From IMG/VR virus record IMGVR_UViG_3300033068_001265, positions 1-64,000 of that record: a DNA stretch of 64,000 nt; one strand, written 5' to 3'. A program made the translations under genes and the position numbers. The first letter of the stretch is position 1, and every line of letters begins with the position of its first letter. The DNA is from a virus (lineage: Duplodnaviria > Caudoviricetes). A model generated the notes under the pieces. It saw only the letters and a list, made by a program, of their open reading frames with translations, had not been told where the DNA came from and did not search any database. This document shows positions 1 to 45,900 of this stretch, in pieces.

Positions 1-448
1 TGCAACCGCAGGAGACGGGGGAACTGCAACCGCAGGAAAGTGGGGAACTGCAACCGCAGGATACGGGGGAACTGCAATCGCAGGAAACCGGGGAACTGCA
101 ACCGCAGGAGACGACGGAACTGCAACCGCAGGAAACCGGGGAACTGCAACCGCAGGAGACGACGGAACTGCAATCGCAGGATACGGGGGAACTGCAACCG
201 CAGGAGACGGGGGAACTGCAACCGCAGGAAAGTGGGGAACTGCAACCGCAGGATACGGGGGAACTGCAACCGCAGGAAAGTGGGGAACTGCAACCGCAGG
301 ATACGGTGGAACACTCATCTTGCGGTGGTGGGATGGTTGCCGTGACCGCACTGTCGTCGGCCATGTTGGCGAAAATGGAATCTTGGCGAATGTAGCTTAT
401 CGGTTGAACGAAAACGGAAAAATGGTGAAGGTAAGGGTAGAAGAGTGA
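1..448 (+). CDS. 5'-partial octapeptide-repeat protein (ATAGxxGT x13, ice-nucleation-like beta-solenoid) with short C-terminal domain
   Basis: Frame starting at nt 2 reads ATAGDGGT ATAGKWGT ATAGYGGT ... LILRWWDGCRDRTVVGHVGENGILANVAYRLNENGKMVKVRVEE*. TGA at 446-448 overlaps the GTG of the next gene (GTGA). Not in the ORF track because its start lies outside the window. Confidence 0.8.
   Translation, partial: ATAGDGGTATAGKWGTATAGYGGTAIAGNRGTATAGDDGTATAGNRGTATAGDDGTAIAGYGGTATAGDGGTATAGKWGTATAGYGGTATAGKWGTATAGYGGTLILRWWDGCRDRTVVGHVGENGILANVAYRLNENGKMVKVRVEE
2..313 (+). repeat. 13 tandem 24-bp coding repeats GCAAYCGCAGGA-NNNNNN-GGAACT
   Basis: Directly visible. The variable hexamer codes DG/KW/YG/NR/DD. 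Confidence 0.95.
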
Positions 449-1116
449 AATGCCAACATGATGGTACCCCCCTCTACTTTCCTGATGAGATGGCTCTTCA
501 TCCTTCTGGATTGAATTGTAACGAGTATCAGGTAAAACCAGATTTTGGACTGTATGCTGACTTTGCATGGCGACCGACTTGGCGAAACGAATTCATCAAC
601 TGGCCAGACTTCAGGATTCCGGTTGATCTAGATTTGGCGGTACAACAGATCTGGGATGCCTGTGAGCGAGCGAGTTGTGGTGAGGTAGTAGAGGTAGGTT
701 GTATCGGTGGACATGGACGAACGGGAACCATCCTTGGGTGCGCTGTCACATATTCTGTTGGTTTAAGCTGTAGCACTGAACAAGCAACCGAATGGGTCCG
801 AACTAATTACTGTGATAGGGCCATCGAAACCGCATTACAGCAATGGTTCATAAGCTACTTTAGGTCCCAGATCTTTAATCTAGAGGTTCCACCGAAGCCA
901 ACCCCTCAAACGGTAAAAACTTCCATGGATACCTACTGCTCCAAAACCAATCATTATGCAATGTGGATACAGGGACATTCAAAGTGCGCCGATCGTTCAT
1001 CGTGTCCAGTATGGGCATCTGATGTAAGGTCCTTTGAGTCGGGTACCATTCCACAGAACATTAAAACATTTGGGGCAGCACTGCTTTCAAGGTACAAACA
1101 GGACGGGAGGTCTTAA
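445..1116 (+). CDS. protein-tyrosine/dual-specificity phosphatase-like protein
   Basis: CX5R P-loop VGCIGGHGRTGT, upstream WPDF acid loop, downstream AIETxxQ. Confidence 0.8.
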   Translation: MKCQHDGTPLYFPDEMALHPSGLNCNEYQVKPDFGLYADFAWRPTWRNEFINWPDFRIPVDLDLAVQQIWDACERASCGEVVEVGCIGGHGRTGTILGCAVTYSVGLSCSTEQATEWVRTNYCDRAIETALQQWFISYFRSQIFNLEVPPKPTPQTVKTSMDTYCSKTNHYAMWIQGHSKCADRSSCPVWASDVRSFESGTIPQNIKTFGAALLSRYKQDGRS

Positions 1117-17255: not shown

Positions 17256-17753
17256 TTAGATCCAAGTCAATAGAAAAGGCCGAGACACCGGGGGAGTGTC
17301 TCGGCCTTTATACGTTTTAACTACTTCTGAGATATAATCCATGCATTTCACAAAGATGTAACCCTTAGGCCTCGTTATTCTCGTTATCTCAGACAATCCA
17401 TCGTTAATAAGTGCCTGCAATTCCTTCGGGGAAGTCGGCGCATTAAACAGTCCAAACCTACCGTACAGATCCTTAACCTTTGAGGTTGCTCGTCCACCAA
17501 CTGAAACGTACGGTGGGTCGTATGCTGCACCATCAAAGGTGTTGTCAGCGTAAGGTAACGATCTGAAATCTACACCGTCTAAGGCAATATCATGGATAGT
17601 TAGATAGTCCGGCTGCCACACCGTCCACCAGTTCCCCTTGCCGTAGGTAGGATCTATGATGGTCCCGGCATCTTTCCAATAGAGAGACGCCGCATCAGCT
17701 ATAAGGTCTCCATTAGAGGCCCATGTGGTGGCTGCTAGAATCGGTTTACTCAT
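17256..17753 (-). CDS. DNA amino-methyltransferase (N6A/N4C), possibly C-terminally truncated
   Basis: DPTYGKG SAM motif and DPPY catalytic motif; last 20 codons run through the terminator. Confidence 0.65.
   Translation of the reverse strand: MSKPILAATTWASNGDLIADAASLYWKDAGTIIDPTYGKGNWWTVWQPDYLTIHDIALDGVDFRSLPYADNTFDGAAYDPPYVSVGGRATSKVKDLYGRFGLFNAPTSPKELQALINDGLSEITRITRPKGYIFVKCMDYISEVVKTYKGRDTPPVSRPFLLTWI
17274..17310. terminator. bidirectional terminator at the convergence of the two transcription blocks
   Basis: AAAAGGCCGAGACAC-7nt-GTGTCTCGGCCTTTA. Confidence 0.75.
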
Positions 17754-18739
17754 GAATCCAACAATGCTGATACATACCGATTGAACAACTCAGAGTCACC
17801 CTCAACATGATTAGCCGCATTAAGTTTACCCTGGCCCAGCTTTTCACCGGTTTCAGCATCAGCAAACCAAGCGCCAGACTGCTTGATTAACCCCCCAGCA
17901 ACACCTAGCTCTATCAGGGTGGACCCATTGCTGATCCCTGACTCATAGTAGATGTCGAAGGTACTGGTTTGGAATGGTGGAGCGTGACGGTTTTTGGTGA
18001 CTTTAACCTTGACCTGATGGCCTATCACGGGGTCGGCACCCAGATTCTTGATCCTACTGACCTCTAGTCTGGTCGAACACCAGAATGAAAGTGCTTTACC
18101 ACCTGTTGTGACTGTTTGTGGTCCGTACCCCATGGACTGAATATTGGCCCGCAGCTGGTTAACCCAAAAGATAATGGCATCAGATCGAACACTGGTCATC
18201 TTCGAACGGAGTTTTCTCAACCCTTGGCTCATCAGACGGGCCTGAACGGCCATCTGAGCGTCGCCGTAGTCCCCGGAGATTTCCGAGCGAGGCACCATCC
18301 CAGCGACCGAATCAACGACAATGAGAGGGATCTCATCGACTTCTAGGAGTTCATCCAAGATTGTCAGGGTATCCTCGGTTGACTCGGGTTGAGCGATCAT
18401 GAGTTTGGAAATATCCACTCCGGAAGTTTCAAGCATGTGTGGGTCCAGAGAATGCTCTAGATCCACATAGACACAATTCCCCAACTCCTGAGCCTGAGCA
18501 ATAGCTGATTGAGCAATGGCTGATTTACCTGAACCAGCAACACCAGCAGCCTCAACAAAGGTTCCCTTAGGAAGCCCACCCCCGAGAATCTTATCTACTG
18601 CCAGGACCCCCGTAGGGATGCGCTCAACTTCTAGAGCTTCATCATCTAAGCTCGTCAGGACCCCATCCCCCAAAGTCTTCGCTATAGACATCTTCACGTC
18701 CGCGAGGCTTTTTTTGGTGGAAGTTTTTTTTGTTGCCAT
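17750..18739 (-). CDS. recA: RecA recombinase
   Basis: IPTG, GGGLPKG, GVAGSGKS, VVDSVAG, QARLMSQGLRKL, NQLR, TTGGKAL, GAWF, GQG; start at MATKK after GGAG. Confidence 0.95.
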   Translation of the reverse strand: MATKKTSTKKSLADVKMSIAKTLGDGVLTSLDDEALEVERIPTGVLAVDKILGGGLPKGTFVEAAGVAGSGKSAIAQSAIAQAQELGNCVYVDLEHSLDPHMLETSGVDISKLMIAQPESTEDTLTILDELLEVDEIPLIVVDSVAGMVPRSEISGDYGDAQMAVQARLMSQGLRKLRSKMTSVRSDAIIFWVNQLRANIQSMGYGPQTVTTGGKALSFWCSTRLEVSRIKNLGADPVIGHQVKVKVTKNRHAPPFQTSTFDIYYESGISNGSTLIELGVAGGLIKQSGAWFADAETGEKLGQGKLNAANHVEGDSELFNRYVSALLDS

Positions 18740-18833
18740 TCTCAATCTCCATTTGATGTTGCTTCTGCAACTGCTTTCTTTGCTGTGCCTTAGCACGACG
18801 AGATTGAGACCAACGACCCTCACTCACAGAAAA

Positions 18834-19073: not shown

Positions 19074-21542
19074 TCAACGGGCAGCGTAAGAAAGGAATAG
19101 GGTTTTGATCTCATTTCGCATTTGTTCAGTGTTGTCTACATAAAACTCATCTGATAGAACCAATGTGGTCGATTTTGTAATATAGATCCCAACAGGGACA
19201 CTCCCCTTATGTGTCAATAAAATTGACTTAAGCTGAGAGAGTGCTCCTGAGTCCTGAGCGAACCCCTTAGGCATCATCAGTTTGAACACATCACCCTCAA
19301 CTTCCTCGACTGTATCAACATTGACTCGTTCCCAACGATTGACGACGTAGGAGCGTTCCTCATCTCTATCTCGCCCCACTCGTAGTCCTACTTTGATGAT
19401 ATCACCAACAGTTGGAACATTGATCTTCTCAAACGTCTTAGGGAAGACGACCGCTTCAAAAGATCCGGTTTGATCCTCAAGCAGAAGAGTTGCCATCTTA
19501 GCTCCGGCCTTGGTGTATCTGACCTCAACCTCAGACACAACCACCAGAACATCTACCCATTGGCCCTCTTGGTCGTCCAAGTCGATGACCATGAAGTCTA
19601 AGGGTCTCATTCCATCAAGAGGATGACCTGAAACATAAATACCCACAGCTTGTTTTTCTAGAGCCATCCGCTGGTTCTGTGAATACTCTTGAGTGGGGAT
19701 ACTGAATTCCAAAAACTCATCAGTATCAAAAAGAGAATCCGGCTGAGCCTTACGATCTTTGCGACCTTGAACCAGCAACTCTTCAGCCACCGTACAGATA
19801 CCTAGACGGGTTCCGAACGCATCTAAGGCACCCCCCTGAGCTAGGGACTTTAGTTCCCTCAAGTTGGGGTTTACTCGCCGGACGAAATCGAAGATGTCCA
19901 CAAAGGGACCATCAGCATTTCGTGCAGTAAGAGTATCTTCTGCCGCACGACCCACGAATTTGAGTGCCCCTAGCCCTACAAGAATTTCATTATCATTGGC
20001 AGTAAAATTGTATTCTGACAGGTTTATGTCAGGAGTGGATACCTGAAGACCCATTCGTTTTGCTTCGTATAAGTACAGTGAAGTTTTCTCGATATCATCA
20101 GAAACAGAGGCGCAAGTTGCGGCCATAAATTGCGCTGGATAATGGGCTTTTAAGTACGCCGTTTGATACGATATGACGCTGTAGAGAAAACTATGGGATT
20201 GATTGAATGAATACGCCGAAAATCCTTCAATCATTTCAAAAAGATCTTCGGCAAAAACCTTGTCATATCCCTGTCCAAGACAGCGCTCAATAAATACGTC
20301 CCGCTCTTCGGCCATCTTATCACGTTGTTTTTTGCCAATAATGGAACGAAGTGTATCCGCTTCAGCCATAGTATATCCAGCAAATTTCTGGGCAATTTTC
20401 ATAACCTGTTCTTGGTATAAACAAATACCCCAAGTGTTTTTTAAAATGTCTTCGGCGTCAGGGTGGAAGTAGGTGACTGGCTGCCGAAAGTTCTTTCTGT
20501 CAGCATAATCATTATGCATATTGGAAGCCATTGGCCCCGGCCGATACAACGCCAGAACAGCAGCAATATCATCCAAGGATTCTGGCTGCATTCTACGCAG
20601 CAAAGCCCTCATTCCAGATTCGCTAAGTTGGAAAACTCCAACGGTATCTGCTTTACATAATAGCCTGTAAGTTTCTGGGTCATCATAGTTGTCGGAAATC
20701 TCGACATCCAGCCCAATCATATCAATTGTATCTCTAATGATGTCCAGGTTTCGCAGGCCCAGAAAATCCATTTTAAGAAGACCAAGTTCTTCAATGGTTT
20801 TCTTATCAAACTGAGTAACCAGAGGACTGTCTGGTTTCTTTTGAACTGGGACAAGGTTAGTCAACGGCTCGGGAGATACCACTACGGCAGCAGCACCAAT
20901 GCCATCTTGTCGAATAAGACCCTCTAAGCCTTGGGCAATGTCAATCACCTGAGCGGCTTCAGGGTCAGTGTTGTAGAGGTTTCTTAGGTCCTCAGCATTC
21001 TTGTAGCCGAAATCGTATCTATCGCTATGAGTGAAACAATCCTTGAGTGGAGTCTGCTCTCCCATATGCAGTGGTGGCATGGCCTTGGAGATTTTATCAC
21101 CAACCTGTGGTGGTAATCCTAGGATCCTTGCAGCATCCCTGACCGCAGATCGAGCTTTCATCTCAGAAAAGGTAATGACCTGAGCAACCCTGTCTCTGCC
21201 ATACTTTTCTATGGTGTAGTTAATTAATTCTTCCCTGCGACTTGTTTCAAAATCTAAATCTATGTCTGCGCACGATGGCGGCTTACCCCTTCGAACAATC
21301 AGGCTATCGGGATATCGTGTTGGTGGATCATTGGTGATACCAATCACAAACGCAACAGCGGAACTGTTCGGGTTGGTGAATAACTTCCCCGAATCGAATT
21401 TATTTAGGAATTCCTCGGTTAGGTCACTGGAAGATTCGATAGCTGCAAGTTCGTCACTTAGCCACTCTGCGGCTATCCCACTATTACGTGGAGATGACCT
21501 CACGAGATGGCGTAAACGGTTCGATCTGTTAATATCAAACAT
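19074..21542 (-). CDS. dnaE: DNA polymerase III alpha, C-terminal part (catalytic palm, thumb, fingers, HhH, OB)
   Basis: DIDLDF, KMDFLGL, GVFQL, ALYRPGP, YQEQVM, YSFNQSH, YLKAHYP, GIYVSGHP; ATG 21542 after CAGGA overlaps the upstream stop. Confidence 0.9.
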   Translation of the reverse strand: MFDINRSNRLRHLVRSSPRNSGIAAEWLSDELAAIESSSDLTEEFLNKFDSGKLFTNPNSSAVAFVIGITNDPPTRYPDSLIVRRGKPPSCADIDLDFETSRREELINYTIEKYGRDRVAQVITFSEMKARSAVRDAARILGLPPQVGDKISKAMPPLHMGEQTPLKDCFTHSDRYDFGYKNAEDLRNLYNTDPEAAQVIDIAQGLEGLIRQDGIGAAAVVVSPEPLTNLVPVQKKPDSPLVTQFDKKTIEELGLLKMDFLGLRNLDIIRDTIDMIGLDVEISDNYDDPETYRLLCKADTVGVFQLSESGMRALLRRMQPESLDDIAAVLALYRPGPMASNMHNDYADRKNFRQPVTYFHPDAEDILKNTWGICLYQEQVMKIAQKFAGYTMAEADTLRSIIGKKQRDKMAEERDVFIERCLGQGYDKVFAEDLFEMIEGFSAYSFNQSHSFLYSVISYQTAYLKAHYPAQFMAATCASVSDDIEKTSLYLYEAKRMGLQVSTPDINLSEYNFTANDNEILVGLGALKFVGRAAEDTLTARNADGPFVDIFDFVRRVNPNLRELKSLAQGGALDAFGTRLGICTVAEELLVQGRKDRKAQPDSLFDTDEFLEFSIPTQEYSQNQRMALEKQAVGIYVSGHPLDGMRPLDFMVIDLDDQEGQWVDVLVVVSEVEVRYTKAGAKMATLLLEDQTGSFEAVVFPKTFEKINVPTVGDIIKVGLRVGRDRDEERSYVVNRWERVNVDTVEEVEGDVFKLMMPKGFAQDSGALSQLKSILLTHKGSVPVGIYITKSTTLVLSDEFYVDNTEQMRNEIKTLFLSYAAR

Positions 21543-22875
21543 TTTCCTGACCAAGGTCCCAGAGAGATACGGGCTTATTGTCCCTTGATGTATATCCTTC
21601 GTACAGAACCCTCTTCCGTGAACCCTCTAACTCTGTAAACTGCGGAAGATATTCGAAAAAATCTGGCACAGAAATTCTGGACGGATTCAGAAATCTCTCA
21701 AAGGGTAAATCGTATTTCAGGGGATCAATGGTTGTGATACCTAAGCACCAAGCTAAACAACTCCCTCCGACCGACCCCCTTCCAGGGCCTGTTTGGATGC
21801 CCTGTTCCTTGGCAAACCTCATCAAATCCCAGACGATCAAGAAGTAACTTGATACACCCATCGAGTCAATGACACTTAACTCATAAGCGAGACGTTCTAG
21901 GTACTCTTGAGATGTTAGGCCCTTAGCTAATAGCCCATCGAAAGCCAGTTTACTCAAATAGGCTGCCGGTGTCGGGTATTCTGGTGGCACAGGGAAGTTC
22001 GGTAGATGTAAAGTCTGGAAGTCCAGAGTAACATTACATCTCTCATTTACTTCAAGGGTGTTATCACATGCTTCAGGAATCTCTTTGAATAGGTCCCTCA
22101 TCTGTCCAGCAGGCATCAAATAATGCTGGTCTGACTGGAACTGGAACCTGTTCGGGTCTGATAGTTTCGCTCCAACCTGACAACACAAAAGAGCGGAATG
22201 ACTGTCAACGTCCTTAGCATCCACATAATGTAGATCCATAGCTGCAAGAGTCTTTAAGTTAAGCCTTTTTGCGATATCAATGAGCCACGGATTGGTTTTG
22301 TGTTGCTCCGGTAGTCCGTGGTCTTGAAGCTCAACGTAGACGTTCTCTTTACCCATAATATCTACAAGTCGTTGAGTGCGGGCTAATGCCTCGTCGTAGT
22401 TGTCGTGCAGCAACTCTTGAAGAATGGGACCACCGAGACATCCGGTAGTGATAATCAGACCCTTACCGAACCGTTCTAATAGCTCCCAGTCGGTTCTTCC
22501 CTTGAAGTGGAAACCTGAGATGAACGCCTCGGAGGACATTCTCATCAAATTCTGATAACCATCGTTATCAACAGCCATTGTGGTTAGGTGGAAGTATCTC
22601 TTATCTGAACCGTCGATAGAGCCGGTTTTAGCCTTAGCTCCCTTGACTGTTCTGTCGTCGCAGAAATAGAACTCTTCCCCGATAATGGGGTTGATGTCGT
22701 ATTTCTTGCATTCCTTATAGAACTCCACAACGCCATACATATGGCCATGATCACAGATATGTAATCCCGGCATATTGTATTCAGCTGCACGAGCTACAAG
22801 GTCTTTGATCTTCGCCGCACCATCTAAGAGGCTATAGCTAGTGTGACAATGGATTGGAACGATTGGGTCAGTCAT
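21535..22875 (-). CDS. dnaE: DNA polymerase III alpha, N-terminal part (PHP domain plus start of palm)
   Basis: HCHTSYSLLDG, CDHG, TGCLGG, DLHY, GPGRGS, FERFLNPSR. Confidence 0.9.
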   Translation of the reverse strand: MTDPIVPIHCHTSYSLLDGAAKIKDLVARAAEYNMPGLHICDHGHMYGVVEFYKECKKYDINPIIGEEFYFCDDRTVKGAKAKTGSIDGSDKRYFHLTTMAVDNDGYQNLMRMSSEAFISGFHFKGRTDWELLERFGKGLIITTGCLGGPILQELLHDNYDEALARTQRLVDIMGKENVYVELQDHGLPEQHKTNPWLIDIAKRLNLKTLAAMDLHYVDAKDVDSHSALLCCQVGAKLSDPNRFQFQSDQHYLMPAGQMRDLFKEIPEACDNTLEVNERCNVTLDFQTLHLPNFPVPPEYPTPAAYLSKLAFDGLLAKGLTSQEYLERLAYELSVIDSMGVSSYFLIVWDLMRFAKEQGIQTGPGRGSVGGSCLAWCLGITTIDPLKYDLPFERFLNPSRISVPDFFEYLPQFTELEGSRKRVLYEGYTSRDNKPVSLWDLGQENV

Positions 22876-23093: not shown

Positions 23094-24365
23094 TTATCCC
23101 ACTTCCTCCAAGTCCACATATTCGTCAGAGTTTTTGAGGTATCCCTCTAGGACCCCGAAATCGAAACTCTTTGACTTCAGGAACCCTACCACACCATCAG
23201 AACGCTCCACCCGGATAGCGACACCCTCTCGAATGTGGCCTTGGTCCAAGGTGGAGGGTCCGTTCTCGTACTGATCCACAAGGAACTTGACCGCCTCTAC
23301 GTCCTCGTCAGAGGAAATGAGTAGGGGACCTGCTAGTTCTGGGACGTAGCTTATTCCGAGTTCATCGCAGCGAGCCTTGACTTGAGACCAAGGCTTTTCG
23401 GTAATAACCCCATCTTCATTTACTTGGATGATTCTATAAACAAAGAATTTACATTCACCCGGAATGCATCCGTAAGAATAGGTCATGTTGGGGCCGTAGG
23501 CAGCCTTGATGTCTTTTAGTTTAGATGTGTCCTGAGTCCCCATAACAGGTGTCTCAGAGTCCACGTAGCCGACGACCTCACCAAAGATCACCTCGCCCTT
23601 ATGGATGTTCTCTAAGAAGGATTCTATAACTCTGTGTCTAAAGGATTCATCCTCATAAAACCCTTGAGTGGGGTCCCTGAGGACGACATTTCTGGTCCCG
23701 ACAACAAATCTCCATTGTTGAGTTTCGCCTGGTGAGCTCCTGGTGAGCTTATGGAACCAACGCAGTTTCTTCTGGGTAGTCTCTAGACTATATGACTGAC
23801 GCTGGGAGGTACCGTGTAGCTTCTCGGTAAGATAAGCGATCGACCCCGGGACCAGCCACTCGTTAGCTTCGTACTGAAACTTCTTTGTCTCAATGTGCTT
23901 GGGGAACATCACAAGCTGCCGCCGTGGGCCGGTGGCCTTCATCTGCCGCAAGGTGGCAGGCGTGTAATACTTGTTGCAGATCGGCACTCCATTTAGAGTG
24001 TCAAAAACCATTCCCTCAGTCAGGGATGAAGGATCAACCTTAGTAAAGGCTAAGGTATCTAACGTGGCCCAAAAGCCGTCAGATTTCTCTTTCCTCAGTC
24101 GCTGGGATCGAACCCGTCGATTCGCTGAGAAGTAACCACCCGCACGCTCTCCCGTTACGGGATCCTTGCGTTCAATAAGGTCATTGGATTCGGCGTATTC
24201 CTGAGACAGTTGGCCATCACAGGGGAAGAAAATTCCTAACTGACCTTCGTAGTTCTCTAAGCCGACCACAATTTGGTAACCTGACACGGTTGCTAATTGT
24301 AACCTGTCGGCATTTGGATGAGGTCTAACATTTACCAGTTTCGTAATTTTTGCTTCGTAACTCAT
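23094..24365 (-). CDS. RNA ligase, DRB0094/Rnl5-type with N-terminal OB domain
   Basis: HPNADRL, TEKLHGT (motif I), FGEVVG, EGVAIR, LKSKS. Confidence 0.85.
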   Translation of the reverse strand: MSYEAKITKLVNVRPHPNADRLQLATVSGYQIVVGLENYEGQLGIFFPCDGQLSQEYAESNDLIERKDPVTGERAGGYFSANRRVRSQRLRKEKSDGFWATLDTLAFTKVDPSSLTEGMVFDTLNGVPICNKYYTPATLRQMKATGPRRQLVMFPKHIETKKFQYEANEWLVPGSIAYLTEKLHGTSQRQSYSLETTQKKLRWFHKLTRSSPGETQQWRFVVGTRNVVLRDPTQGFYEDESFRHRVIESFLENIHKGEVIFGEVVGYVDSETPVMGTQDTSKLKDIKAAYGPNMTYSYGCIPGECKFFVYRIIQVNEDGVITEKPWSQVKARCDELGISYVPELAGPLLISSDEDVEAVKFLVDQYENGPSTLDQGHIREGVAIRVERSDGVVGFLKSKSFDFGVLEGYLKNSDEYVDLEEVG

Positions 24366-24633: not shown

Positions 24634-25095
24634 TTACCCCTGTTTCGCACTACCGATCTCATCGACTCTGTCTAAATACACCGGAATGGTGCAGGTTGGA
24701 TTCGCTCCAGATTCCCTGAGAGAGACGTACTCCAAAAGAATCTCCTGCCAAAGACCCTTATCTGAATGAACCGTTTCATGGCAGGTGGCGCAGAGGGTGA
24801 TGAGGTTGCTTGGGTCGTGTGTGCCACCCTCGGACCTGTATTTTATGTGGTGTAAATGCAGCAGGTAAGTTCCATTACAGAATCTACATTTCCAGCCATC
24901 AGATTCATACACCCCTTGTCTTGTCGCAGGAGGCATCTGCCTATCCGTAGCACGCTGCCTTAATCTAGACCTACCGTTTCGCTCTTTTGTGAATTCATCT
25001 CTATGCTCTTTAGAACAAAACGTGTACCACCCAGAGCGAGTCGCCGTGTCACGGTCAATGTAGTCTTTGCATTGCTTGCATTTCACGACTGGCAT
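24634..25095 (-). CDS. HNH endonuclease
   Basis: CRFC, HHIKYRSEGG, NLITLCATCH. Confidence 0.85.
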   Translation of the reverse strand: MPVVKCKQCKDYIDRDTATRSGWYTFCSKEHRDEFTKERNGRSRLRQRATDRQMPPATRQGVYESDGWKCRFCNGTYLLHLHHIKYRSEGGTHDPSNLITLCATCHETVHSDKGLWQEILLEYVSLRESGANPTCTIPVYLDRVDEIGSAKQG

Positions 25096-25817: not shown

Positions 25818-26372
25818 CTAAATTTCCACGGTAGAGAACTGCTTGGGTCCTCTAGATGTTGGTGTGTCCATGAAATCCAACCATGAAGGTTGATGAGGCT
25901 CATCTTCCTTAACTCCCTCTGTATGGCTCTCTAAGGGGTTTGAGTCTGTTTCATGGGGTTCGGTACCCCAAAGCCCTTCACTCTCGTTAGACGGCTCTGT
26001 GGAGGCCTCTGGTTTGAATGTGGTTAATTCAGCCTCGATCAGACCAGAATTAACCCCCTCGACCTGAACATCACAATTGTCATACAGATACTTAGCCATA
26101 TCAGGAGATATCATTACAGAAGCTTCGACCTTGAAGGTGTTCTGCCTCTTGAGTTCTAGGGTCTTACGAACCCGAGTAAATTTAGGAGCTTCAGCACGAA
26201 CAGTCACAATGAAAGTAAACTGCTCTGAGTTACAGATTTCGATACCATCCTCTTCTGGGAGGGGGAATGACCCCGAGAATCTGCCCTCGTGAAGCTTGAC
26301 AACCTCCCCGTCGAAAACTTCTTTTCCGTCCTTAATCTGCTTAGTCACCAGATGCCTCCTGAGTGAGTGCAT
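25818..26372 (-). CDS. hypothetical protein (start probably GTG near 26348)
   Basis: ORF fills the gap. Confidence 0.5.
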   Translation of the reverse strand: MHSLRRHLVTKQIKDGKEVFDGEVVKLHEGRFSGSFPLPEEDGIEICNSEQFTFIVTVRAEAPKFTRVRKTLELKRQNTFKVEASVMISPDMAKYLYDNCDVQVEGVNSGLIEAELTTFKPEASTEPSNESEGLWGTEPHETDSNPLESHTEGVKEDEPHQPSWLDFMDTPTSRGPKQFSTVEI

Positions 26373-29070
26373 TGCCCTGAATAGTCGTACTGCCTGTCCT
26401 GTGCATTTCGGCTGCCTCCTGCCAACTCAACCCCGCCCAAGCCATCTTCTTTTCTAGAAGTGCCCTTTCCTGAAGAGGATCAGATCGTGGCACCAAGGCA
26501 AGAGTTAGTGGGGCAAACTGATAAATCACCTTGGCGTTTACCCCTCCGTCTCTAGACTTAAGAATCGTCATATGGATTTCTTTCTTTTCATCCGCCTTAT
26601 CAATCCCCGGTGACTGGTCTGTACTGAAGATCGACAAAACCATATCTGCCGTTTCCTCAACAACTCCAGAACCCCTCATACTGTCCAGCCTTAACTGTTC
26701 AGCAAACCCAACCTGACGATTAGCCTGATGAGGTACAAAGAACACGCACTCATGTTCCTTGGCGATTGCCTTAAGACCCATGATAGCAGTTGAGGTTCTT
26801 TGGTACTCTTCTCCATGGAAAGACCTAGCGTAATACCCCAGGTAATCAACCACTACAATATCTGGAGAATGACGAGTCTCATACCTATACTGATCAATCG
26901 CTACTTCAAGTTCAGCTTCAGTGACTCTGTTCTTATCTACTAGATACAGATTCTGCTCCCAGAAGCGCACTGTTTCTATAGTAGAAGCCCCCGGTTCATA
27001 GAAGTTGTGGATCCGATGCGCTCGCTCATACCATTCATTCTTGGTCTGTTCCAAGGAAAGTAAGAGAATTCTAATGCCGGGATTAAGTAGCTTCATTCTA
27101 TGTAGGATATTGAAGGTGCTCAACGATTTTGATGAATTATGAACCACAAACTCGTTGGCAATGAAGTTATGGGGATCATCCAGCACCTCTATATCGTAAG
27201 TGTCTCCCATTCCCACGTACTCTATGTCGACAACTTCAGTAAGACCTGTTTGGTACAGAAACGGTGGAGGGCCATCTGTTGCATGGTGCCTTAAGTGCTC
27301 AACTCGGTCTAAAAGTTCTAGGTTGGAAATAGAATTATTTGCTTTATCTTCATCAAGATGATGAACCGTATGAGTTTTAGGGTTAATGAAGGTTAACCCA
27401 TCTATGTCACCCGTTTGGCAAGCCTGAACAAAATCATCAAATGTCATATCATTTAGATAAGCTTCATATACAACTCTGTGAAGCTGAACAGTGTTACCGG
27501 GGGTATCACGAAGAGGGTATATTTTTCTTCTAGTACGGTAAGGATGATGAGTTAGTCCGCTTTTTTGCTTGTAGTGGCCTGCTTCCTTCTTCGGCAGACC
27601 TAATCCCTTACCCTGATTCACATAGACGCAGTCACCTACGAAGATATCTTTTAATGGTCTGAAACCGTTTTCGGTCATGAATCGATGATCCGTTGTGGAT
27701 TTTATTTTCTTACCACAAGCAGTAGTAACCTCCCATAGTTCCTTTTCGCCCGAATACCAAATGTCCTTCAGTTCAACCAATCTAACAGTGCCATCATGCC
27801 AGCGACGCTGCACCATGATGGTGTTATCTTCACTCCATGTGTATTTTCTACCATTGACACCCACAACCCCGTCACCCTTGAGCATATTAAAGACGTATTC
27901 AAGAGTGTAATGCCTTCCAACGCCACCACGATTTACGATGATTTCCGTATCAGCTGCCAGACAATTCGTTTTTCCTACCAAAACCACCACTTGACCTGGC
28001 GTCAATCCATGGTTTAATTCAGTATCCAATTCCTCAATATTAAATCTGAGACCAACTCTGTTGGGATTACCCTCTACCTCTAACCAGCGATCGAATGCCT
28101 CGGCTACAGAAACAAGAAGTCCACCCTTGGCCTTACTAAACAACCACTCAAAGGACTCTCTGGTCTTATTGTGGTTAACTACCCATTCGGTAACATCGAT
28201 CTTCTTCTGACCAGCAGACGCCTTGGGCATCTCAACCACACGAGAACGGGGACCGAGTTCTTTAGCAACCTTCTCTGAACCAGCACGACCGGCAGCATCA
28301 TTGTCGAACACGACATAGATACGTCGTGCTTCATCTAGGGTTTCAGTCCACTCTGGTTTCCAGATGTTTTCACCAGGAACACCGACAGCAGCAAATCCTA
28401 ATTGCTGCAATAAGGCACAATCGAATTCCCCGGCCGTCAAGACAACCGTTTCCTCACCACGGACAGCATCAACTCCGTAAAGCTGCGCCCTTGACCCGGG
28501 TAGAGAAAGGTACTTCCCACCGAGTTCCTTGCCACGAATAGTGGTCGTGTTGCCCCACTCAATATATGGAATGGTTATCTTGGACTGAAAGAAATCGAAT
28601 CCATGGAGATTAACTAGACCAGTATCCTTAACCTCTTCAGGGGAGAAGCCTTTGTCCATGAGGTGTTTAAGGACCCCACCGTCCGCCCAACCGAAACGTA
28701 GTTTCTCGATTGTCTGATCCGACAGCCCTCGTTCGATCCTAAGGTACGTGTAAGCATCAGGGTTCTCTAGGAGTTGGTTAACATAGTAATCTGTGGCAGC
28801 ATTTAATATGTGAAGAACCTTGTACGATGGCTTATCATCTAAGGGTGGGTCACCAAAATGTTTTCTGAGTGTGTTTACACTGCCTTTAGTGTCACACAAA
28901 AAACATTTGAACAATCCCCACTTATCCGAGTCGGGGTCATTGTTGAAGTATAATCTACCTGGACGAGATGGATCCTCATCACAGAAAAAACAAGTCGTAT
29001 GGATTTGTGACGTTCCCCCAGATCTAACTTCTATACCCTTGGATTGAAGATACTCAATCAAATCCATCAA
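26341..29070 (-). CDS. DNA primase-helicase fusion (Zn finger, TOPRIM, DnaB-like SF4 helicase) containing an intein
   Basis: CFFC/CFLC, AGEFD, FDNDAAG, spliced Walker A GKTNSSKS, SLEQ, VDYLGY, HQANR, GSGVVEETAD, KSRDG. Confidence 0.9.
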   Translation of the reverse strand: MMDLIEYLQSKGIEVRSGGTSQIHTTCFFCDEDPSRPGRLYFNNDPDSDKWGLFKCFLCDTKGSVNTLRKHFGDPPLDDKPSYKVLHILNAATDYYVNQLLENPDAYTYLRIERGLSDQTIEKLRFGWADGGVLKHLMDKGFSPEEVKDTGLVNLHGFDFFQSKITIPYIEWGNTTTIRGKELGGKYLSLPGSRAQLYGVDAVRGEETVVLTAGEFDCALLQQLGFAAVGVPGENIWKPEWTETLDEARRIYVVFDNDAAGRAGSEKVAKELGPRSRVVEMPKASAGQKKIDVTEWVVNHNKTRESFEWLFSKAKGGLLVSVAEAFDRWLEVEGNPNRVGLRFNIEELDTELNHGLTPGQVVVLVGKTNCLAADTEIIVNRGGVGRHYTLEYVFNMLKGDGVVGVNGRKYTWSEDNTIMVQRRWHDGTVRLVELKDIWYSGEKELWEVTTACGKKIKSTTDHRFMTENGFRPLKDIFVGDCVYVNQGKGLGLPKKEAGHYKQKSGLTHHPYRTRRKIYPLRDTPGNTVQLHRVVYEAYLNDMTFDDFVQACQTGDIDGLTFINPKTHTVHHLDEDKANNSISNLELLDRVEHLRHHATDGPPPFLYQTGLTEVVDIEYVGMGDTYDIEVLDDPHNFIANEFVVHNSSKSLSTFNILHRMKLLNPGIRILLLSLEQTKNEWYERAHRIHNFYEPGASTIETVRFWEQNLYLVDKNRVTEAELEVAIDQYRYETRHSPDIVVVDYLGYYARSFHGEEYQRTSTAIMGLKAIAKEHECVFFVPHQANRQVGFAEQLRLDSMRGSGVVEETADMVLSIFSTDQSPGIDKADEKKEIHMTILKSRDGGVNAKVIYQFAPLTLALVPRSDPLQERALLEKKMAWAGLSWQEAAEMHRTGSTTIQGNALTQEASGD
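27136..27963 (-). mobile_element. 276-aa intein with HNH homing endonuclease in the helicase P-loop
   Basis: Starts CLAADTEI; block B TTDHRF; HHLDEDKANNSISNL; ends YDIEV..HNFIANEFVVHN followed by +1 Ser. Confidence 0.92.
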
Positions 29071-39962: not shown

Positions 39963-42900
39963 TCAGTACAATCTCGGGTCACGACCCGAGGTCCCTGTTC
40001 CCAGTGCTTGATTAAGCACATTAATCATCTCTGCCTGATCAGCCCCATTGTTGATATTCAACGTAATAGTCACAACTCGGTTGTCATTGTAGCCTGCTGC
40101 TTGACCATCAGCACCTACACTTTGATTCAGTCGTCTCACCTCATACAACGTCGGCAGGGCTAAGCTAGTAGGAAGATTCATCTGAAGGCCACCAGAGATG
40201 TCGTCCTTGAGTTGCTTGATCGTCAACTCCAGATCCTTAAACTGCTTAGTTCCAGGAATAAGAGTGGATTTCAATCCCTCAAGATAATTGACGTACTCCA
40301 TCTTTGTTAGAGTACCCATCTCATACATGAATCGGTAATCATCCAACCTATCATTAAATGCTGCATCTGATGCTGACTTATCAGCACTTGCTACAGCAGC
40401 ACGAAGTCGGTTTAGTTCAGCCTCTCCACCACCCTTACCTTGAGCAGCCAGGCCTAGAGCTTCCTGTAATTGTGCCCTAGCCTTCTGTGCCTGTACCTGA
40501 GCAGACCCAACATCATCGCCCATTGCAGCAAGTTCAGCTGCTCGCAGGTCATACTTTGAATCACGGACATCTGACATGGCCTGTTGTAGGGCTCTCTCAG
40601 CTTCAATCAACTGCCGTTGAGCGTCGATCTTCTCATCTTCATTCTGAGCCGCCGAGAGTAACGTTTGAGCCGTCTGAAGATCAGTGTTGGCCCCAGCTAC
40701 TGGATCGTTCTGTTTGGCCTTCTCAAGCTCTCTGAGGGCCTTGTAGCGGGCAATGAGAGAATCTCTTGCAGCTTTCTCTGCTGCCTGAAGATCCAGTAAC
40801 GCTTGAGGCTTTTCGTCTCCGATAGCATTATTAGCCTTAAATCGAGCAATATCTAGATTAATTACAGCATCCTGAACACTATCGCCCTTTGAATTGAGTT
40901 TCTTCAATTGCATCGAATCAACGATTTTAGCGATTTGGGCGTCTCGGATTGCTGCTAGAGCCGTAATCTTATTTGCCTGCGCTTGCTTTGCTTCAGGCGA
41001 ATCAGCAGACCCGGTTGTTTCTATGGCTGTTTTGTAGTCGATGTCGGCTTGAGCAACATCGGCTAAGGCCGCTCCAACCGAGTCCTTTCTTGCCATAGCC
41101 TGAGCCTTAACAACCGCCATGGTTGCTTTGGTTTTTTCTGCAAGGATTTTCTTTAACTGATTTTCAGCGTCAACAACCCGAGCCTCAGCCTGAGTTTCTT
41201 CAGCGAACGAAGATCCCTCTGCATTTGCCCGCATCTGTCTCGCTACAGCTAGGTCTGCCAAGGCACCGGCAACTGAATTATTCCCAGCCCGCGCTTTAGC
41301 TAAGGCCCCCATCGCTTGAGCGTTAGCATCATTGATCTGCCTAGCTTGGGCTGCCTCAATCTTTGCTGGATCTAGATATCCGGGGAGCTTTCCACCATTA
41401 ATTTCTGTAGCATCCAGAATATCTTGAATTCCAGCAGAAGCCCCTTTAAGATCCTGTGCTTGTTTGGTATCCCCCCTGCCCCTGCGCTCAAGATTTTTGC
41501 GTTCTGCATCAAATTCCCTTTGTTTGGCTTCCAACTGGGCAGTGACCTGCTCCGGTGTTAGTTGCCCTGCTTGTTGGCCACGAACAAGTCCACCGATAAA
41601 AGCCCCACCAGAGCTACCAGTTGCTTGATTGAACTGTGAAGACCACCGATTCCAATTACCTGTTACGGAACCAATGGTCCCAATGACGTTTGAAACATTC
41701 GTATTGGGATCGATCTCTATCTGCTGAGCAAGGATTGCCCGAGCTGTCTCGGGATCAGCCTGCTTTGCCATCTCAATCTGAGCTTCCTTGCGAGCCTGAA
41801 CAGCAGAGGTTACAAGCTGCCTACGAGACTCTGGATCCGTAACTTTCCCGCTCTTCAGAAGCTTTGTGTATGTTTCCAGCTTAGCCGTGGCCGCATCTAG
41901 GGGGGTATCAAATCCGGACAATTCAGCGTCAGCCAAGCTCATCTGAGCAAAGGCCATCGCCTTAGCTGAAACAGCTTTGTTGAACTCAGCCAGCCCAGAG
42001 AAGAACATTTGGAGAGTCTGATCTGAGGGGTCCTTTTGCTCCCTCAGCATTTCTCTCATGTTATTCAGGTTTCTAGTGGCAGCTTCTTCGTATTGGCTGA
42101 AACTTATGACCCCTGTATCACGGTTCTTTGTGATCGTCTCTAGGGTTTGGCTCTTGCGGGCCACCTCAAGTTGGGTTCGAGCCTTCTGGGAAGCTTTAAT
42201 AACCTCTGGATCTCTTTCAGCGGCCTCTAGTATTGACAAGGCCTGTCGCTTGTCATCCTCTGTATATTTGGTACTGTACGAAGTTGCTATTTCTTGGAGG
42301 TCTCCGTATGGATTCTTTCCCCCGAAGGCCTTAGAGACCTCTTCGGTAACATCCTTTATGTCATCGACACCAGCCATTTTAGCGACGCGCTTTTTCAGTG
42401 CATCTTCAGCTTTACCGGTTTGATTTCCACCAAACAACCCAGTGAAGGTTTTGAGTTGGGTGCGGACTGCTGTTATACCGGTCCCCCTACCAAAAATCTG
42501 AGCAGCCAGCGACCCCTTTCCGAACTCACCTTTTTGGAAATCTCCATTCGCCAGATTAGCAAGAGCTTCTCTCTGCGCCTCTCTGATATCCTGTCGAGCG
42601 CTCGCTGAAGCCTCAGCTTCTTCAGGAGTTCCCTTCTTGAACTTCGGCTTCTCGATGAGAGAATCCTGTAGCGCTTTGTTTACCGCCGAAGAATCCAGTG
42701 ATCCAATAGCATCTAGGCGATCTTTACTTATGTTCTTAGTGAAAGCTACTGACCTATAGATATCAGCGTCACCAAGGAATCTTTCACCCGTGAAGAATGA
42801 ACCAATCCTTGCTAGATTTCCCGGACCGGAGTCTCTAGACTTTGCCAGAGCCTCAAGTTCTGTAGCGGAAACGTCAGTTTCTGAAGCCCACTTGAGGATC

Positions 42901-45900
42901 TCTTCAGCGTGTTTACGCTGGTGGTTTACCCCGTTGCGGATCGCTAAGTAGGCAACAGCAAGACCAGCTAAAGCCACCGAACCAACACCTAATGCTGCTG
43001 TAGAAATACCCAGGAACCCAGCAACTCCCGTTGCCATCCCCTTGGCTCCGGCTGTAAGGCCAGTAAGTCCTCCGGCAAACAATGTTCTGGCTCCAGCAGC
43101 AGCGCCACCTGTAGCGGCGGCTTGTTGCCCGAATGCCGCTGCACCAGTTCCGGCACCAGCTTGCTGTCCAAGAAATCCCAGGGACCCCATGCCAGCAGCC
43201 TGAGCGGCCTGAGTAGCTTGAGCCGCCCGAGTGGCTCGGATTCCTTCAAAGAGTCTTCCGAATGTCCCCAATCCAGCACCCTGAGCAGCGGCTGAACCAG
43301 CGGCCCATCTGCTTGCCATGAATCCGCCCAGTTTAGTGGGGGCAAGCTTACCAGCTAAAATAGGGAGGATGCTAGAACCAGAAGCGGTTGCTGCATTACC
43401 CCCAACAGCGATAGCTAAGTGCTTACCAGTGAATGCTGATGCTAGAGATAGGAGCTTAACAGCAGCAACTACGCCTAGAATCTTCCCGGGCAACCCACCA
43501 AAGAAATCGTTGATTCCACCACTGATCTTAAGAATACCCTCCAGAGCCCTTACGAAAAGACCGACGGTAGTAATTAGACCAGAGAATACTTCACCAAGAC
43601 CACCCTCAAACAAAGACGCAACCAAGAGGTTAAATTCCTGACGCAACCTCTGCATCTGGTTAGTCAGGGTCTTCTGAGCAGACTCAAATCGTGCCTGAAG
43701 AACTCCCTCGGAATTTTTTGCACCCTTTGTATACTCTTCGATCTGCCCCCGAGAATCTACTACCGAAAGCAATGTCTGGGCTTCGCGCCTACCACCTAAA
43801 AGATTGGTGATGAAGTCCTGAGACTCCTTGGTAAGTCCCTTGAAGTTCTTGAGCATTGCAAAGAGAACATCTTTGGTTGATCCATCACTCAATGCCTTGA
43901 CGAATTCTGGAGTCCTCAAAGCATCATCAGCGGCAGCAAGTTGCAGCAACTGGGTCTTGGCCTGTGAGATGGCAGGAATGATCCTGCCAAAGGACTCAGC
44001 TAGAGCAGTACCAGAACGACCAGACTTTTGCTGGGCAACAGCAGCTAATGCAGCAAACTCTTCGGCGGAGAACCCGGCTTCTTTACCAACAGGGGCAACG
44101 TCACCGATGAAACCAATGGTTTCTTTAGCGGTCACACCCGATAGAGACTCTAACCTAAGAGCGATATTGCCGATCTCTTCATTTGTTTTGTCAAATCCAA
44201 ATGAAGCAGCAGTCAGTCCATCGGTAAGTTCAGCTGCCGGAATCTTAGTTGCAACCGAAAGTTTTGCAGCAGCATCAAGCTGACTCTCGACCAAATCCTG
44301 CCCAGAAAGATTACCAATAGTCTGATCACTAAAGGCCCCTTGGAACTGCATCCCGAGAGATGCCAGAACATCTGCCTGCACACCAGTCGTCTTGGAAAGA
44401 TCAAGGATATTGTCCTTGAAGCTCTGGAAGATCGGATCAGCCCCAGACCCAAACGTATCCTCCATCTGGGCTTTGACTTTTTCCATCGTGAACTGGAACT
44501 CTTGAGCTTCCCGCACACCGGATGAGATTCCCCCCATGGCCCCATAAAGAGCCATGGATGGGAGTCCGTACCTCAGCGTGGATAAGGCACCAGTACCAAA
44601 GAATGACGCCGCCCCACCAGCACCACGAACGCGAGCCAGAACCCGACTGAACCGTCCCAGTTGTTTAGGTGGTGGCTCACCAGAACCAAAACTGAACGGG
44701 TCATTAGGATCAATTGGCCCACCACCACCGCCACCACCGCTTCCACCGCTTCCGCCGCTCCCACCGCCACGACGAGAATCACTCGTTGTCATCCAATCCC
44801 AGAAACGCCTACCACCACTTCTAGTGTCTTTGTATGTAGGTGAAGTTACAGGTTCCTGTGGGAACAGTTGAGCCCCCAGAGGAGAAATTCCACCCCTGAG
44901 TTTTTGGATGTCTTCCCTGGTTTGAGAGAGTCTTTTTAGTGAACCTGAATCAAGGCCTTTGACATCAATAGTTGCAGCTTCCTGCTCTAACTTCTCAAGA
45001 AGTGCTAGTAACTCCCTGAACTTAGCCTTGGCACCGGAAGTATCCGCTCCCACCCGGATGAGTTCAGTTGTTTGCATCCCCAGGGTGCTGAATTCACTTT
45101 TCAGAACCCCATGGTAATCCTGAAGGGCCTTGACACCATCTTGGCGACGACCCATCTCTTCGGTCGTACGAACTTTTTGGGCCTTGGCAACATCTTCCCT
45201 TGACCCCGGACCGGGGGATTCCTTTCGAAACTCTAATTCTTCAGCTGCTTCACCAATCAGCCGCTGGGCAGTTAGCTTTCGTTCCCCGGAAAGGCCATCT
45301 GGGATAGCTACGCTATCAGCGAATTTCCGAGCTTCTTCAGCTTCCTTAAGAAGCCCGGTAAGAGTTGTTTGACCTTCTGGCGTTCTAAAGTCGTGCAAAC
45401 CAGAACGTCTAACTGCTGCGGACAACTCTTTCGCCCGCGCCTCTGCAACCTTAAGACTTTCTGCATCAGTTAAGGCTCCGGTGACTTCATCACCAATAGC
45501 ATACTGCTTCCGACGAGCTAACGGAACAAGATCCAAGCGGCCACGACCAATAGCCTCTTCGTCCCTTAATCTCTGTCGATGAGCCTTAGCTTCAGCAGCA
45601 TCGACGTCGGAGTGCATCTGGCTAGCCGACAACTCCTCATCGTTCTCGATCTCTTTCTGGGTATCAGCATGAAACCGTCCCGCTGCAACTTGATCCTCAG
45701 CAGCCTTCCGCGGCGTGTAGACATCTTCATCTTCTAGATCTTCAAAGCTTTTAGCCCCAAGAGCACGTTCTGAGATGGTTCGATTGGCTCGGGCTTCGAT
45801 CCTATTTGCCCGAGCGTCAGCAGCGTCCAGACCTTCAAGCATGTACTGCTGATCGGCCTTAGCACTTGCTGATGCCGTCTCTAAGAAATTCAGTCGCTCT

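What the first reader, a model, noticed from the sequence alone, without database searches (positions are those of the whole stretch)
21230..21960. DnaE split at the catalytic motif, with a degenerate duplicated palm segment and no intein
Seen: the N-gene follows DnaE through GPGRGS...FERFLNPSRISVPD, then diverges (FFEYLP...) and stops. The C-gene has its own SD, an 8-nt start/stop overlap, and reaches the catalytic DIDLDF after ~90 aa. Those 90 aa echo the end of the N-gene: WLSDELAAIES vs RLAYELSVIDS, and SSAVAFVIGITNDP vs GSCLAWCLGITTIDP. They lack GRGS. Known: canonical DnaE reads FERFLNPERxSMPDIDxDF continuously, and cyanobacterial split DnaE uses a split intein, whose motifs are absent here. 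Inference: a two-subunit replicase arisen by partial duplication and fission, with GRGS and the catalytic aspartates on different chains. Splicing or ribosomal bypass (~400 nt; e.g. a TCT|TGC junction giving RISCADIDLDF) is the alternative.
Basis: partly seen in the sequence, partly recalled or inferred. Interest (0 to 1): 0.72.

Follow-up and report, generated by a model that had tools for sequence, protein, structure and literature searches.

The report
Two-piece phage DnaE without splicing
This wastewater phage encodes its DNA-copying enzyme as two separate genes cut through the catalytic centre, a layout linked to a selfish endonuclease cassette and shared by dozens of related phage lineages. 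Conserved extra end-pieces, not an intron or intein, most likely hold the two halves together.

Summary
On the minus strand, an N-gene (21535-22875, 446 aa) carries the PHP domain, the first palm part with GPGRGS and FERFLNP, and a 40-aa tail. It overlaps by 8 nt a C-gene (19074-21542, 822 aa) that starts with a 92-aa head, followed by DIDLDF, the rest of the palm, fingers, HhH and OB. The same arrangement recurs in independent assemblies from at least six samples, so it is not a misassembly.

It is not an intron, intein or bypass. Rfam finds nothing, and RNA-library contigs cross the junction unbroken. In relatives the halves are separated by a LAGLIDADG homing endonuclease gene, or lie 3.6 kb apart.

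The head is a conserved, helical, diverged copy of the first palm part (profile-profile E 4.6e-6). It defines a family of at least 51 clusters, always at the start of C-halves. One lineage has a fused form, and close relatives (90% identical) have an uninterrupted gene.

The N model (residues 1-401) and the C model (from residue 85) tile solved Pol III alpha exactly, so head and tail are add-ons.

Best reading: a fractured gene whose halves reassemble non-covalently, with the endonuclease lost here. The closest precedent is phage Aeh1 nrdA/mobE. This scan has noted the same phenomenon on other DNA.

The parts
21535..22875 (-). dnaE N-half gene (446 aa): PHP domain, first palm part, tail
   Evidence: ORF. 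Pfam PHP 5.5e-47 and DNA_pol3_alpha profile 17-104. AF2 model residues 1..401 align to E. coli alpha 2..397 (2hqa, Z 37.2, 384 aligned).
22318..22854 (-). PHP domain (N residues 8-186)
   Evidence: Pfam PF02811, 160.6 bits.
21673..21978 (-). intact first palm part (N residues ~300-401), with GPGRGS at 21772-21789 and FERFLNP..R
   Evidence: P364, G365, R366, G367, S368, E393, R394 and F395 are invariant in 43 N-half and unsplit sequences. Helices H303-317, H323-339, H342-357 and H367-377 in the AF2 model.
21538..21657 (-). N-tail (N residues 407-446): non-DnaE add-on, stop codon at 21535-21537
   Evidence: No homologue aligns beyond residue 406 except other split N-halves. The tail sub-type is shared with L006 and L020. 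pLDDT <50 when folded alone. Not significantly similar to the post-DxD palm (E 0.32).
21535..21542 (-). 8-nt stop/start overlap ATGTTTGA, with AGGA 2 nt upstream of the ATG
   Evidence: Read directly. The same junction occurs in L009-L014. No terminator-like or strong promoter-like site lies between the halves.
19074..21542 (-). dnaE C-half gene (822 aa): head, catalytic DxD strand, rest of palm, fingers, HhH, OB
   Evidence: ORF and Pfam. AF2 mean pLDDT 86.9. Model residues 85..594 align to E. coli alpha 394..910 (2hnh, Z 23.2, 493 aligned).
21267..21542 (-). C-head (C residues 1-92): conserved helical domain, a decayed copy of the first palm part
   Evidence: hhalign E 4.6e-6, head 8-77 against N 305-388. 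The head profile finds 51 cluster representatives, nearly all matching at residues 1-100 of C-halves. S61 and P74 are invariant; E31, N57, A64, G68 and T70 are nearly so. Five helices at pLDDT 83-94.
21249..21266 (-). catalytic motif DIDLDF (C residues 93-98)
   Evidence: Read directly. D93, D95 and D97 are invariant in 31 C-halves.
21234..21660 (-). stretch with no counterpart in the uninterrupted relative L001 (427 nt here against 30 nt there)
   Evidence: blastn of the window against L001: matches end at 21661 and resume at 21233.

Best explanation
This is a fractured ('genes-in-pieces') replicative polymerase gene. A mobile cassette interrupted dnaE just before the catalytic DxD strand. 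In relatives the cassette consists of the N-tail, a free-standing LAGLIDADG homing endonuclease gene and the C-head. In this phage the endonuclease gene is absent, most likely lost, so the two halves abut with an 8-nt stop/start overlap and are probably co-transcribed and translationally coupled. Two separate polypeptides are made. The N-half supplies the PHP domain and the triphosphate-binding part of the palm (GPGRGS, FERFLNP..R). The C-half supplies the catalytic aspartates, fingers, HhH and OB. The halves reassemble non-covalently into one enzyme with a composite active site. The 40-aa tail (disordered alone) and the 92-aa helical head (a decayed copy of the first palm part) are add-ons that most likely dock or stabilise the two halves, as shown experimentally for the tails of the split NrdA of phage Aeh1. 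Shown here: the split, its recurrence, the family, the endonuclease in relatives, uninterrupted close relatives, the homology of the head, and the tiling onto solved structures. Inferred: assembly, the role of head and tail, and loss of the endonuclease.
For: (1) The split is real and recurrent: an identical N-half with the same 8-nt overlap to an 822-aa C-half occurs in six listed assemblies from six samples and in 94 index blocks, and in DNA runs of at least 5 studies. (2) No splicing is needed. In L008 the two halves lie 3.6 kb apart with 7 genes between them. In L021 and L022 the C-half has no N-half upstream. (3) A homologous LAGLIDADG gene (PF14528, 25 bits, above the cut-off) sits between the halves in L002, L003/L004, L006 and L020. 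L006 and L020 have the tail sub-type closest to the window's. (4) Empty-site relatives exist. P0002/L001 (90% aa identity) and P0003 (sister of split P0006) read straight through the motif. Window against P0002 is 97% identical in the 100 aa before the last palm tract, then about 62% in the 53 aa next to the break (nt identity 55-58%), as expected for a recombination or co-conversion tract. (5) The add-ons are under selection. The head profile finds 51 representatives of 50%-identity clusters in 1.84 billion proteins, nearly all at residues 1-100 of ~770-830-aa C-halves, and canonical DnaE does not hit. The head has invariant residues. (6) N(1-401) aligns to E. coli alpha 2-397 and C(85-594) to 394-910, so together they make one complete alpha, with tail and head left over. 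(7) GPGRGS and ERF stay invariant in N-halves, and D93/D95/D97 stay invariant in C-halves, so both are still needed. (8) Precedent: the Aeh1 NrdA-a/NrdA-b tails created by the mobE insertion are essential for activity (Crona et al. 2011, PMC3045599).
Against: There is no protein-level or biochemical evidence. The window holds no endonuclease gene and no recognisable remnant of one, so its former presence rests on relatives only. Alternatively this lineage acquired an already endonuclease-free allele. The RNA-library contigs could derive from contaminating DNA. What head and tail do is inferred by analogy.
Confidence: 0.75

Rival explanations
1. The C-half is a self-sufficient polymerase. Its head, a copy of the first palm part, takes the canonical palm position, and the N-half works as a separate PHP exonuclease or accessory subunit rather than contributing to the active site.
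For: The head is collinear with N residues 305-388 and folds confidently as a helical unit. The halves are unlinked in some genomes. PHP domains of actinobacterial DnaE1 are proofreading nucleases (own knowledge).
Against: The head has lost GPGRGS and FERFLNP..R in all 31 C-halves, while these motifs remain invariant in the N-halves. They have no known role outside the polymerase active site. In the AF2 model of the C-half alone, the structural alignment to alpha starts at residue 85, so the head is not superposed on the canonical first palm part.
Confidence: 0.12
2. The halves are decaying remnants of an inactivated dnaE, and the phage relies on the host replicase.
For: The gene is interrupted at its catalytic motif. 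Annotation pipelines would call this a pseudogene or frameshift.
Against: Both ORFs are full length and open. All catalytic and nucleotide-binding motifs are intact. The architecture is conserved across at least 51 clusters at 50% identity. In one variant most differences fall on third codon positions (read by hand).
Confidence: 0.05
3. The ~400 nt between the motifs is removed or skipped to give one chain, by a group I/II intron, by a ribosomal bypass, or by a +1 frameshift at GTT-TGA that would fuse the two frames.
For: The break lies in a highly conserved motif, as intron and intein sites do. A fused single-ORF form with both add-ons exists in another lineage (P0168). An AGGA lies shortly before GTT-TGA, loosely recalling the prfB shift site (own reading).
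Against: No Rfam family matches at E<=10 other than chance hits. RNA-library contigs of two studies cross 20989-21809 and 20700-22300 with no joint. The head is conserved as protein, with invariant residues. Relatives have the halves kilobases apart or separated by an endonuclease gene, where none of these mechanisms can work. The proposed take-off and landing codons differ (TCT against TCG).
Confidence: 0.04
4. Tail and head are the two parts of a split intein, active or dead, that ligates or clasps the halves.
For: 'Fractured genes' with a homing endonuclease between split-intein halves are known, including three DnaE loci (Dassa et al. 2009, PMC2677866). Earlier notes of this scan describe intein relics at other DnaE breaks.
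Against: No Hint/intein family matches head or tail even at E<=10. There is no conserved Cys/Ser at the tail start and no His-Asn plus Cys/Ser/Thr at the head end; the next residue is Asp. The head is all-helical in the model, whereas Hint domains are beta-rich (own knowledge). The head is homologous to the DnaE palm instead.
Confidence: 0.03

Closest known systems
Phage Aeh1 nrdA-a / nrdA-b split by the free-standing endonuclease gene mobE (Friedrich et al. 2007, recalled from memory; Crona et al. 2011, PMC3045599)
   Same: An essential nucleotide-metabolism or replication gene is cut at a conserved active-site region by a free-standing homing endonuclease. No RNA or protein splicing is involved. 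Unique C- and N-terminal tails are created at the break. Uninterrupted alleles occur in relatives.
   Different: The host gene is DnaE, not NrdA. The endonuclease is LAGLIDADG with an N-terminal HTH, not HNH. The endonuclease is absent in this window. The N-terminal add-on is a 92-aa folded domain derived from a copy of the host gene's own palm. The arrangement is spread over dozens of lineages, including unlinked halves and a fused form. Function of the add-ons is untested.
Fractured genes: split inteins with a free-standing endonuclease gene between the halves (Dassa et al. 2009, PMC2677866)
   Same: The gene order is host N-part, endonuclease, host C-part, in phage-like environmental DNA. 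DnaE is among the hosts.
   Different: Those loci carry Hint-domain split inteins with catalytic Cys/His/Asn, and GIY-YIG or Vsr-like endonucleases, at other DnaE positions. Here intein features were tested and not met.
Cyanobacterial split DnaE with the naturally split DnaE intein (as summarised in PMC2677866)
   Same: The replicative Pol III alpha is encoded by two genes that may be unlinked.
   Different: There the halves are ligated by protein trans-splicing into one chain, at another site. Here no intein is present and the enzyme most likely stays a heterodimer.
Canonical single-chain DnaE / Pol III alpha (E. coli 2HNH/2HQA, M. tuberculosis 5LEW)
   Same: All domains and motifs are present. 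N(1-401) plus C(85-end) superpose on the solved chains end to end.
   Different: There are two chains. An extra 40-aa tail and 92-aa head sit at the break, just before the DxD strand.

Membership tests
C-family replicative polymerase DnaE (Pol III alpha) | PHP, palm (DNA_pol3_alpha), fingers, HhH and OB domains in this order | tested here: met
   Pfam on both halves. Foldseek and VIA-align to 5lew, 2hnh, 2hqa, 2hpi: Z 23-41.
C-family replicative polymerase DnaE (Pol III alpha) | Nucleotide-binding GPGRGS / FERFLNP..R and the catalytic DxD aspartates are present | tested here: met
   Both are present but on different chains: N residues 363-368 and 392-400, C residues 93-97. They are invariant in the family alignments.
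Endonuclease-fractured gene without splicing (Aeh1 nrdA/mobE type) | A free-standing homing endonuclease gene lies between the two halves | tested here: not met
   Absent in the window (8-nt overlap; no remnant). Present in relatives L002, L003/L004, L006 and L020. The window is best read as an endonuclease-free derivative.
Endonuclease-fractured gene without splicing (Aeh1 nrdA/mobE type) | Close relatives carry the uninterrupted gene (empty site) | tested here: met
   P0002/L001 (90% aa) and P0003.
Endonuclease-fractured gene without splicing (Aeh1 nrdA/mobE type) | Novel tails at the break that are required for assembly or activity | not testable with these tools
   The tails exist and are conserved.
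Split intein / fractured gene with intein (Dassa 2009) | Hint-domain blocks, with an N-terminal Cys/Ser, and a C-terminal His-Asn followed by Cys/Ser/Thr | tested here: not met
   No Pfam intein/Hint match at E<=10. The residues are absent in 5-31 aligned members. The head is helical.
Group I or group II intron | Match to the intron covariance models, and RNA lacking the insert | tested here: not met
   cmscan at E<=10 gives only three chance-level hits to unrelated families. RNA-library contigs are contiguous with no joints, which is weak evidence because contigs drop rare forms.
Programmed translational bypass (T4 gene 60 type) | Matched take-off and landing codons flanking a non-coding gap in one gene | tested here: not met
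   The proposed codons differ (TCT/TCG). The 'gap' encodes conserved protein. The halves are unlinked in relatives.

The most novel reading that the evidence does not exclude
The family is an obligate heterodimeric C-family polymerase that arose by in-frame tandem duplication of the segment around the DxD strand, followed by complementary decay and fission. P0168 would be a surviving single-chain intermediate or re-fusion. The decayed copies are not junk: tail and head would pair with each other into a pseudo-palm module. That would interlock the chains in a domain-swap fashion while the intact copies form the real active site. This would be a natural, intein-free way to reconstitute a split polymerase.
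Probability: 0.3. Interest if true: 0.75.

Novelty: new variant of a known kind. Interest (0 to 1): 0.6.

Why it matters
It shows that the active site of a replicative C-family polymerase can be divided between two polypeptides: the nucleotide-binding loop on one, the catalytic aspartates on the other. This state has been kept for a long evolutionary time in many phage lineages, without RNA or protein splicing.

It extends the single well-studied case of endonuclease-fractured genes (Aeh1 NrdA) to the replicase itself. It also adds a twist: one docking add-on is a recycled copy of the enzyme's own palm.

Practically, such loci are easily mis-annotated as frameshifted pseudogenes. The head and tail pair could also serve as a natural, intein-free module for split-protein reconstitution.

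The family displays occupied, endonuclease-free, unlinked, fused and empty alleles side by side. That makes it a good system for studying the life cycle of homing cassettes and gene fission.

Tried and rejected
- A single-sequence search of IMG/VR with the head found nothing. A word-based search of the head region found only itself. tblastn of the head against 50,697 deposited phage genomes found nothing at E<=1. The family appeared only with a profile.
- The tail against the post-DxD palm gives hhalign E 0.32, so the idea that the tail is also a decayed duplicate is not supported statistically.
- Pairwise BLASTP of the head against its own N-half gives E 6.9.
- The head profile against PDB sequences gives only chance hits at E about 1.
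- The ESM Atlas gave only weak feature-level hits to short viral DNA_pol3_alpha proteins, which is a lead at most.
- No remnant of the endonuclease was found in the window or in the 92.5-kb record.
- Head and body identities across relatives are too flat to prove independent cassette transfer.
- The Foldseek table gives no ranges, so VIA-align ranges were used instead.
- The position of the head in the C model is known only from alignment ranges, not from coordinates.
- RNA-library contigs cannot prove transcription or exclude a rare spliced form.
- Promoter and terminator scans are at background level.
Full report
**What is there**

The finding lies on the minus strand.
- ORF 21535-22875 (446 aa) carries a PHP domain (residues 8-186) and positions 17-104 of the Pfam DNA_pol3_alpha profile (residues 319-406).
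- ORF 19074-21542 (822 aa from its ATG) carries profile positions 69-260, then fingers, HhH and OB.
- Profile positions 69-104 are therefore matched twice.
- The stop of the first gene and the ATG of the second overlap in ATGTTTGA (21542-21535), with AGGA two bases before the ATG.
- No terminator-like site or above-background promoter-like site separates them.
- The N-protein tracks every homologue up to residue 406 and then diverges for 40 residues, the 'tail'.
- The C-protein starts with 92 residues, the 'head', before DIDLDF.

**Not an artefact**

The window is bases 1-64000 of a 92.5-kb IMG/VR virus record. An identical N-protein followed by the 822-aa C-gene with the same 8-nt overlap occurs in six listed assemblies from six different samples, and in 94 index blocks in all. 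The 1-kb stretch is held completely by DNA runs of at least five wastewater or activated-sludge studies from 2015-2021.

**Not an intron, bypass or intein**

- cmscan of 20800-22200 at E<=10 gives only three chance-level hits to unrelated families.
- Contigs of RNA libraries from two studies cross the junction without any joint: 20989-21809 in X15 and 20700-22300 in X16. This is weak evidence, because such libraries can contain DNA and contigs drop rare forms.
- Relatives are decisive. In L008 the N-gene and C-gene are 3.6 kb apart with seven genes between them. In L021 and L022 the C-gene has no N-gene upstream.
- Head and tail give no Pfam hit at E<=10, and none to intein/Hint families.
- The nucleophile and His-Asn positions of inteins are absent from all aligned members.
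- The head is predicted all-helical.

**A conserved family tied to a homing endonuclease**

Among proteins of N-half length, eight are true split N-halves of 436-468 aa with a tail. In L002, L003/L004, L006 and L020, a 256-285-aa gene lies between the halves. It has two LAGLIDADG motifs (PF14528, 25 bits against a cut-off of 22.5) and an N-terminal HTH, and it overlaps both halves slightly. L006 and L020 have the tail sub-type closest to the window's. In the window, L019 and L023 the halves abut without an endonuclease gene.

A profile of five heads (A2) searched against 1.84 billion cluster representatives finds 51 proteins at E<=1e-3, of which 22 are at E<=1e-10. Nearly all match at residues 1-100 of ~770-830-aa C-halves. 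The longer ones are C-halves with genuine inteins further downstream. Canonical DnaE palms do not hit. None of 50,697 deposited phage genomes has the head.

**Empty and fused alleles**

P0002 (locus L001) is 90% identical to the N-protein and reads straight through the catalytic motif into sequence matching the window's C-gene. The window has 427 nt (21660-21234) where L001 has 30.

Identity between the two is mosaic:
- 100% over the first ~200 nt, about 80% over most of the gene, and 55-58% in the ~100 nt encoding GPGRGS and the following helix.
- At protein level, 97% in the 100 residues before that tract and about 62% within it.

This is a sharp recombination boundary about 50 codons upstream of the break, as co-conversion with a cassette would leave.

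In a tree of N-bodies, a phage clade of nine rows (support 99) holds seven split genes and two uninterrupted ones, P0002 and P0003. Each uninterrupted gene is sister to a split gene. Split P0051 sits among cellular-type Actinomycetota sequences. The split label needs at least 4-5 changes (FastTree, not tested further).

P0168, found in five contigs of a phage-like genome, is a single 1114-aa ORF. It contains the intact first palm part, a tail-like stretch, a head-like stretch and then the DxD strand.

**What head and tail are**

Profile-profile comparison aligns head 8-77 collinearly with N 305-388 (86.5%, E 4.6e-6; an independent run gave E 7.4e-6). This agrees with the Pfam overlap and with the same succession of helices in the two AF2 models.

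The head keeps a Gly, a Ser and the 'A...G.T...P' helix (S61 and P74 invariant; N57, A64, G68 and T70 nearly so). It has lost GPGRGS and FERFLNP..R. These motifs are invariant in the N-halves. The tail is not significantly similar to the post-DxD palm (E 0.32), and it is predicted disordered when the N-half is folded alone (pLDDT <50 from residue 398).

**Structure**

- The N model (mean pLDDT 82.9) aligns with residues 1..401 to E. coli alpha 2..397 (2hqa, Z 37.2, 384 aligned, rmsd 7.3).
- The C model (mean pLDDT 86.9) aligns with residues 85..594 to E. coli alpha 394..910 (2hnh, Z 23.2, 493 aligned, rmsd 4.0).

The two halves thus tile one complete alpha subunit, with the seam a few residues before the catalytic aspartates. 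The head (pLDDT 83-94, five helices) is not superposed on the canonical first palm part. This likeness to solved single-chain structures is expected for halves of a split gene. It is not evidence of binding by itself.

**Most likely mechanism**

Two polypeptides are made, probably from one transcript with coupled translation. They reassemble non-covalently, with GPGRGS and FERF..R from the N-half and DxD from the C-half forming one active site. Tail and head act as docking or stabilising add-ons, by analogy with the Aeh1 NrdA-a/NrdA-b tails that arose with the mobE insertion and are essential for activity (PMC3045599).

The LAGLIDADG gene seen in relatives would home into uninterrupted alleles. 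The window represents the endonuclease-free stage. The origin of the head by duplication of the palm segment is supported. A full 'tandem duplication, complementary decay, fission' route, with P0168 as an intermediate or a re-fusion, is plausible but not shown.

**Relation to what is known**

Fractured genes with an endonuclease between the halves are known, including three DnaE loci, but those carry split inteins and GIY-YIG or Vsr-like nucleases at other sites (PMC2677866). A survey of bacterial Pol III alpha (PMC3919608) and a recent actinophage intein survey (bioRxiv 10.1101/2025.01.02.630785) do not describe this intein-free split. I found no paper that does.

Earlier notes of this scan report the same kind of LAGLIDADG-split DnaE with conserved add-ons on other DNA: e1-5837147, and e1-3308615, which also mentions a decayed duplicate and fused phage forms. 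Within the scan, therefore, this is a further member, here without the endonuclease.

**Limits**

There is no biochemical or proteomic evidence. The complex predictor was closed. The tree is a quick one. The direction of evolution (loss against gain of the split) is unresolved.

Noticed in passing
window 26341-29070 (-): The primase-helicase (DNAG_N + DnaB_C, 909 aa) carries an intein (Intein_splicing, residues 434-645) with an HNH_3 nuclease inside. The same gene in other assemblies of this phage is called at 632 aa (L009) or 800 aa with an intein (L012), so intein presence and size appear polymorphic.
   Followed up: partly
window 21535-21548 (-): The N-gene ends GTT-TGA with AGGA a few bases upstream. 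A +1 slip there would enter the C-frame and give a fused protein resembling the natural fused form P0168. This is only a resemblance to the prfB shift site. It is not needed, because relatives have unlinked halves.
   Followed up: no
window 21554 and 21558: A variant in RNA library X18 changes the last residues of the tail (L441P, D440N, read by hand). Most of its other differences in both genes fall on third codon positions. The extreme end of the tail seems less constrained.
   Followed up: partly
window 24634-25095 (-) and 23094-24365 (-): A free-standing HNH endonuclease gene (153 aa) lies next to an RNA ligase gene with a PHA02142 OB domain, just upstream of dnaE. A RecA gene at 17750-18823 follows dnaE.
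   Followed up: no
window 39963-50411 (-): A single ORF of 3482 aa lies among other large minus-strand ORFs. It was not examined.
   Followed up: no
L003 1751-4621; L019 8251-9783: Relatives with split DnaE carry further mobile elements in replication genes: a 956-aa primase-helicase with a LAGLIDADG_3 hit (L003), and a PDDEXK nuclease interrupted by an intein (L019).
   Followed up: no
L017 1898-5242 (P0168): A single-ORF DnaE of 1114 aa keeps both the intact palm part and tail-like plus head-like stretches in frame. It occurs in five contigs and is a candidate intermediate or re-fusion.
   Followed up: partly
L008 552-1862 and 5528-6862; L005: In this sub-lineage, RNA ligase (RNA_lig_T4_1) and polynucleotide kinase-phosphatase genes lie between the two DnaE halves (L008). 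In L005 they lie before the N-half. Gene order around the halves has therefore been rearranged.
   Followed up: no
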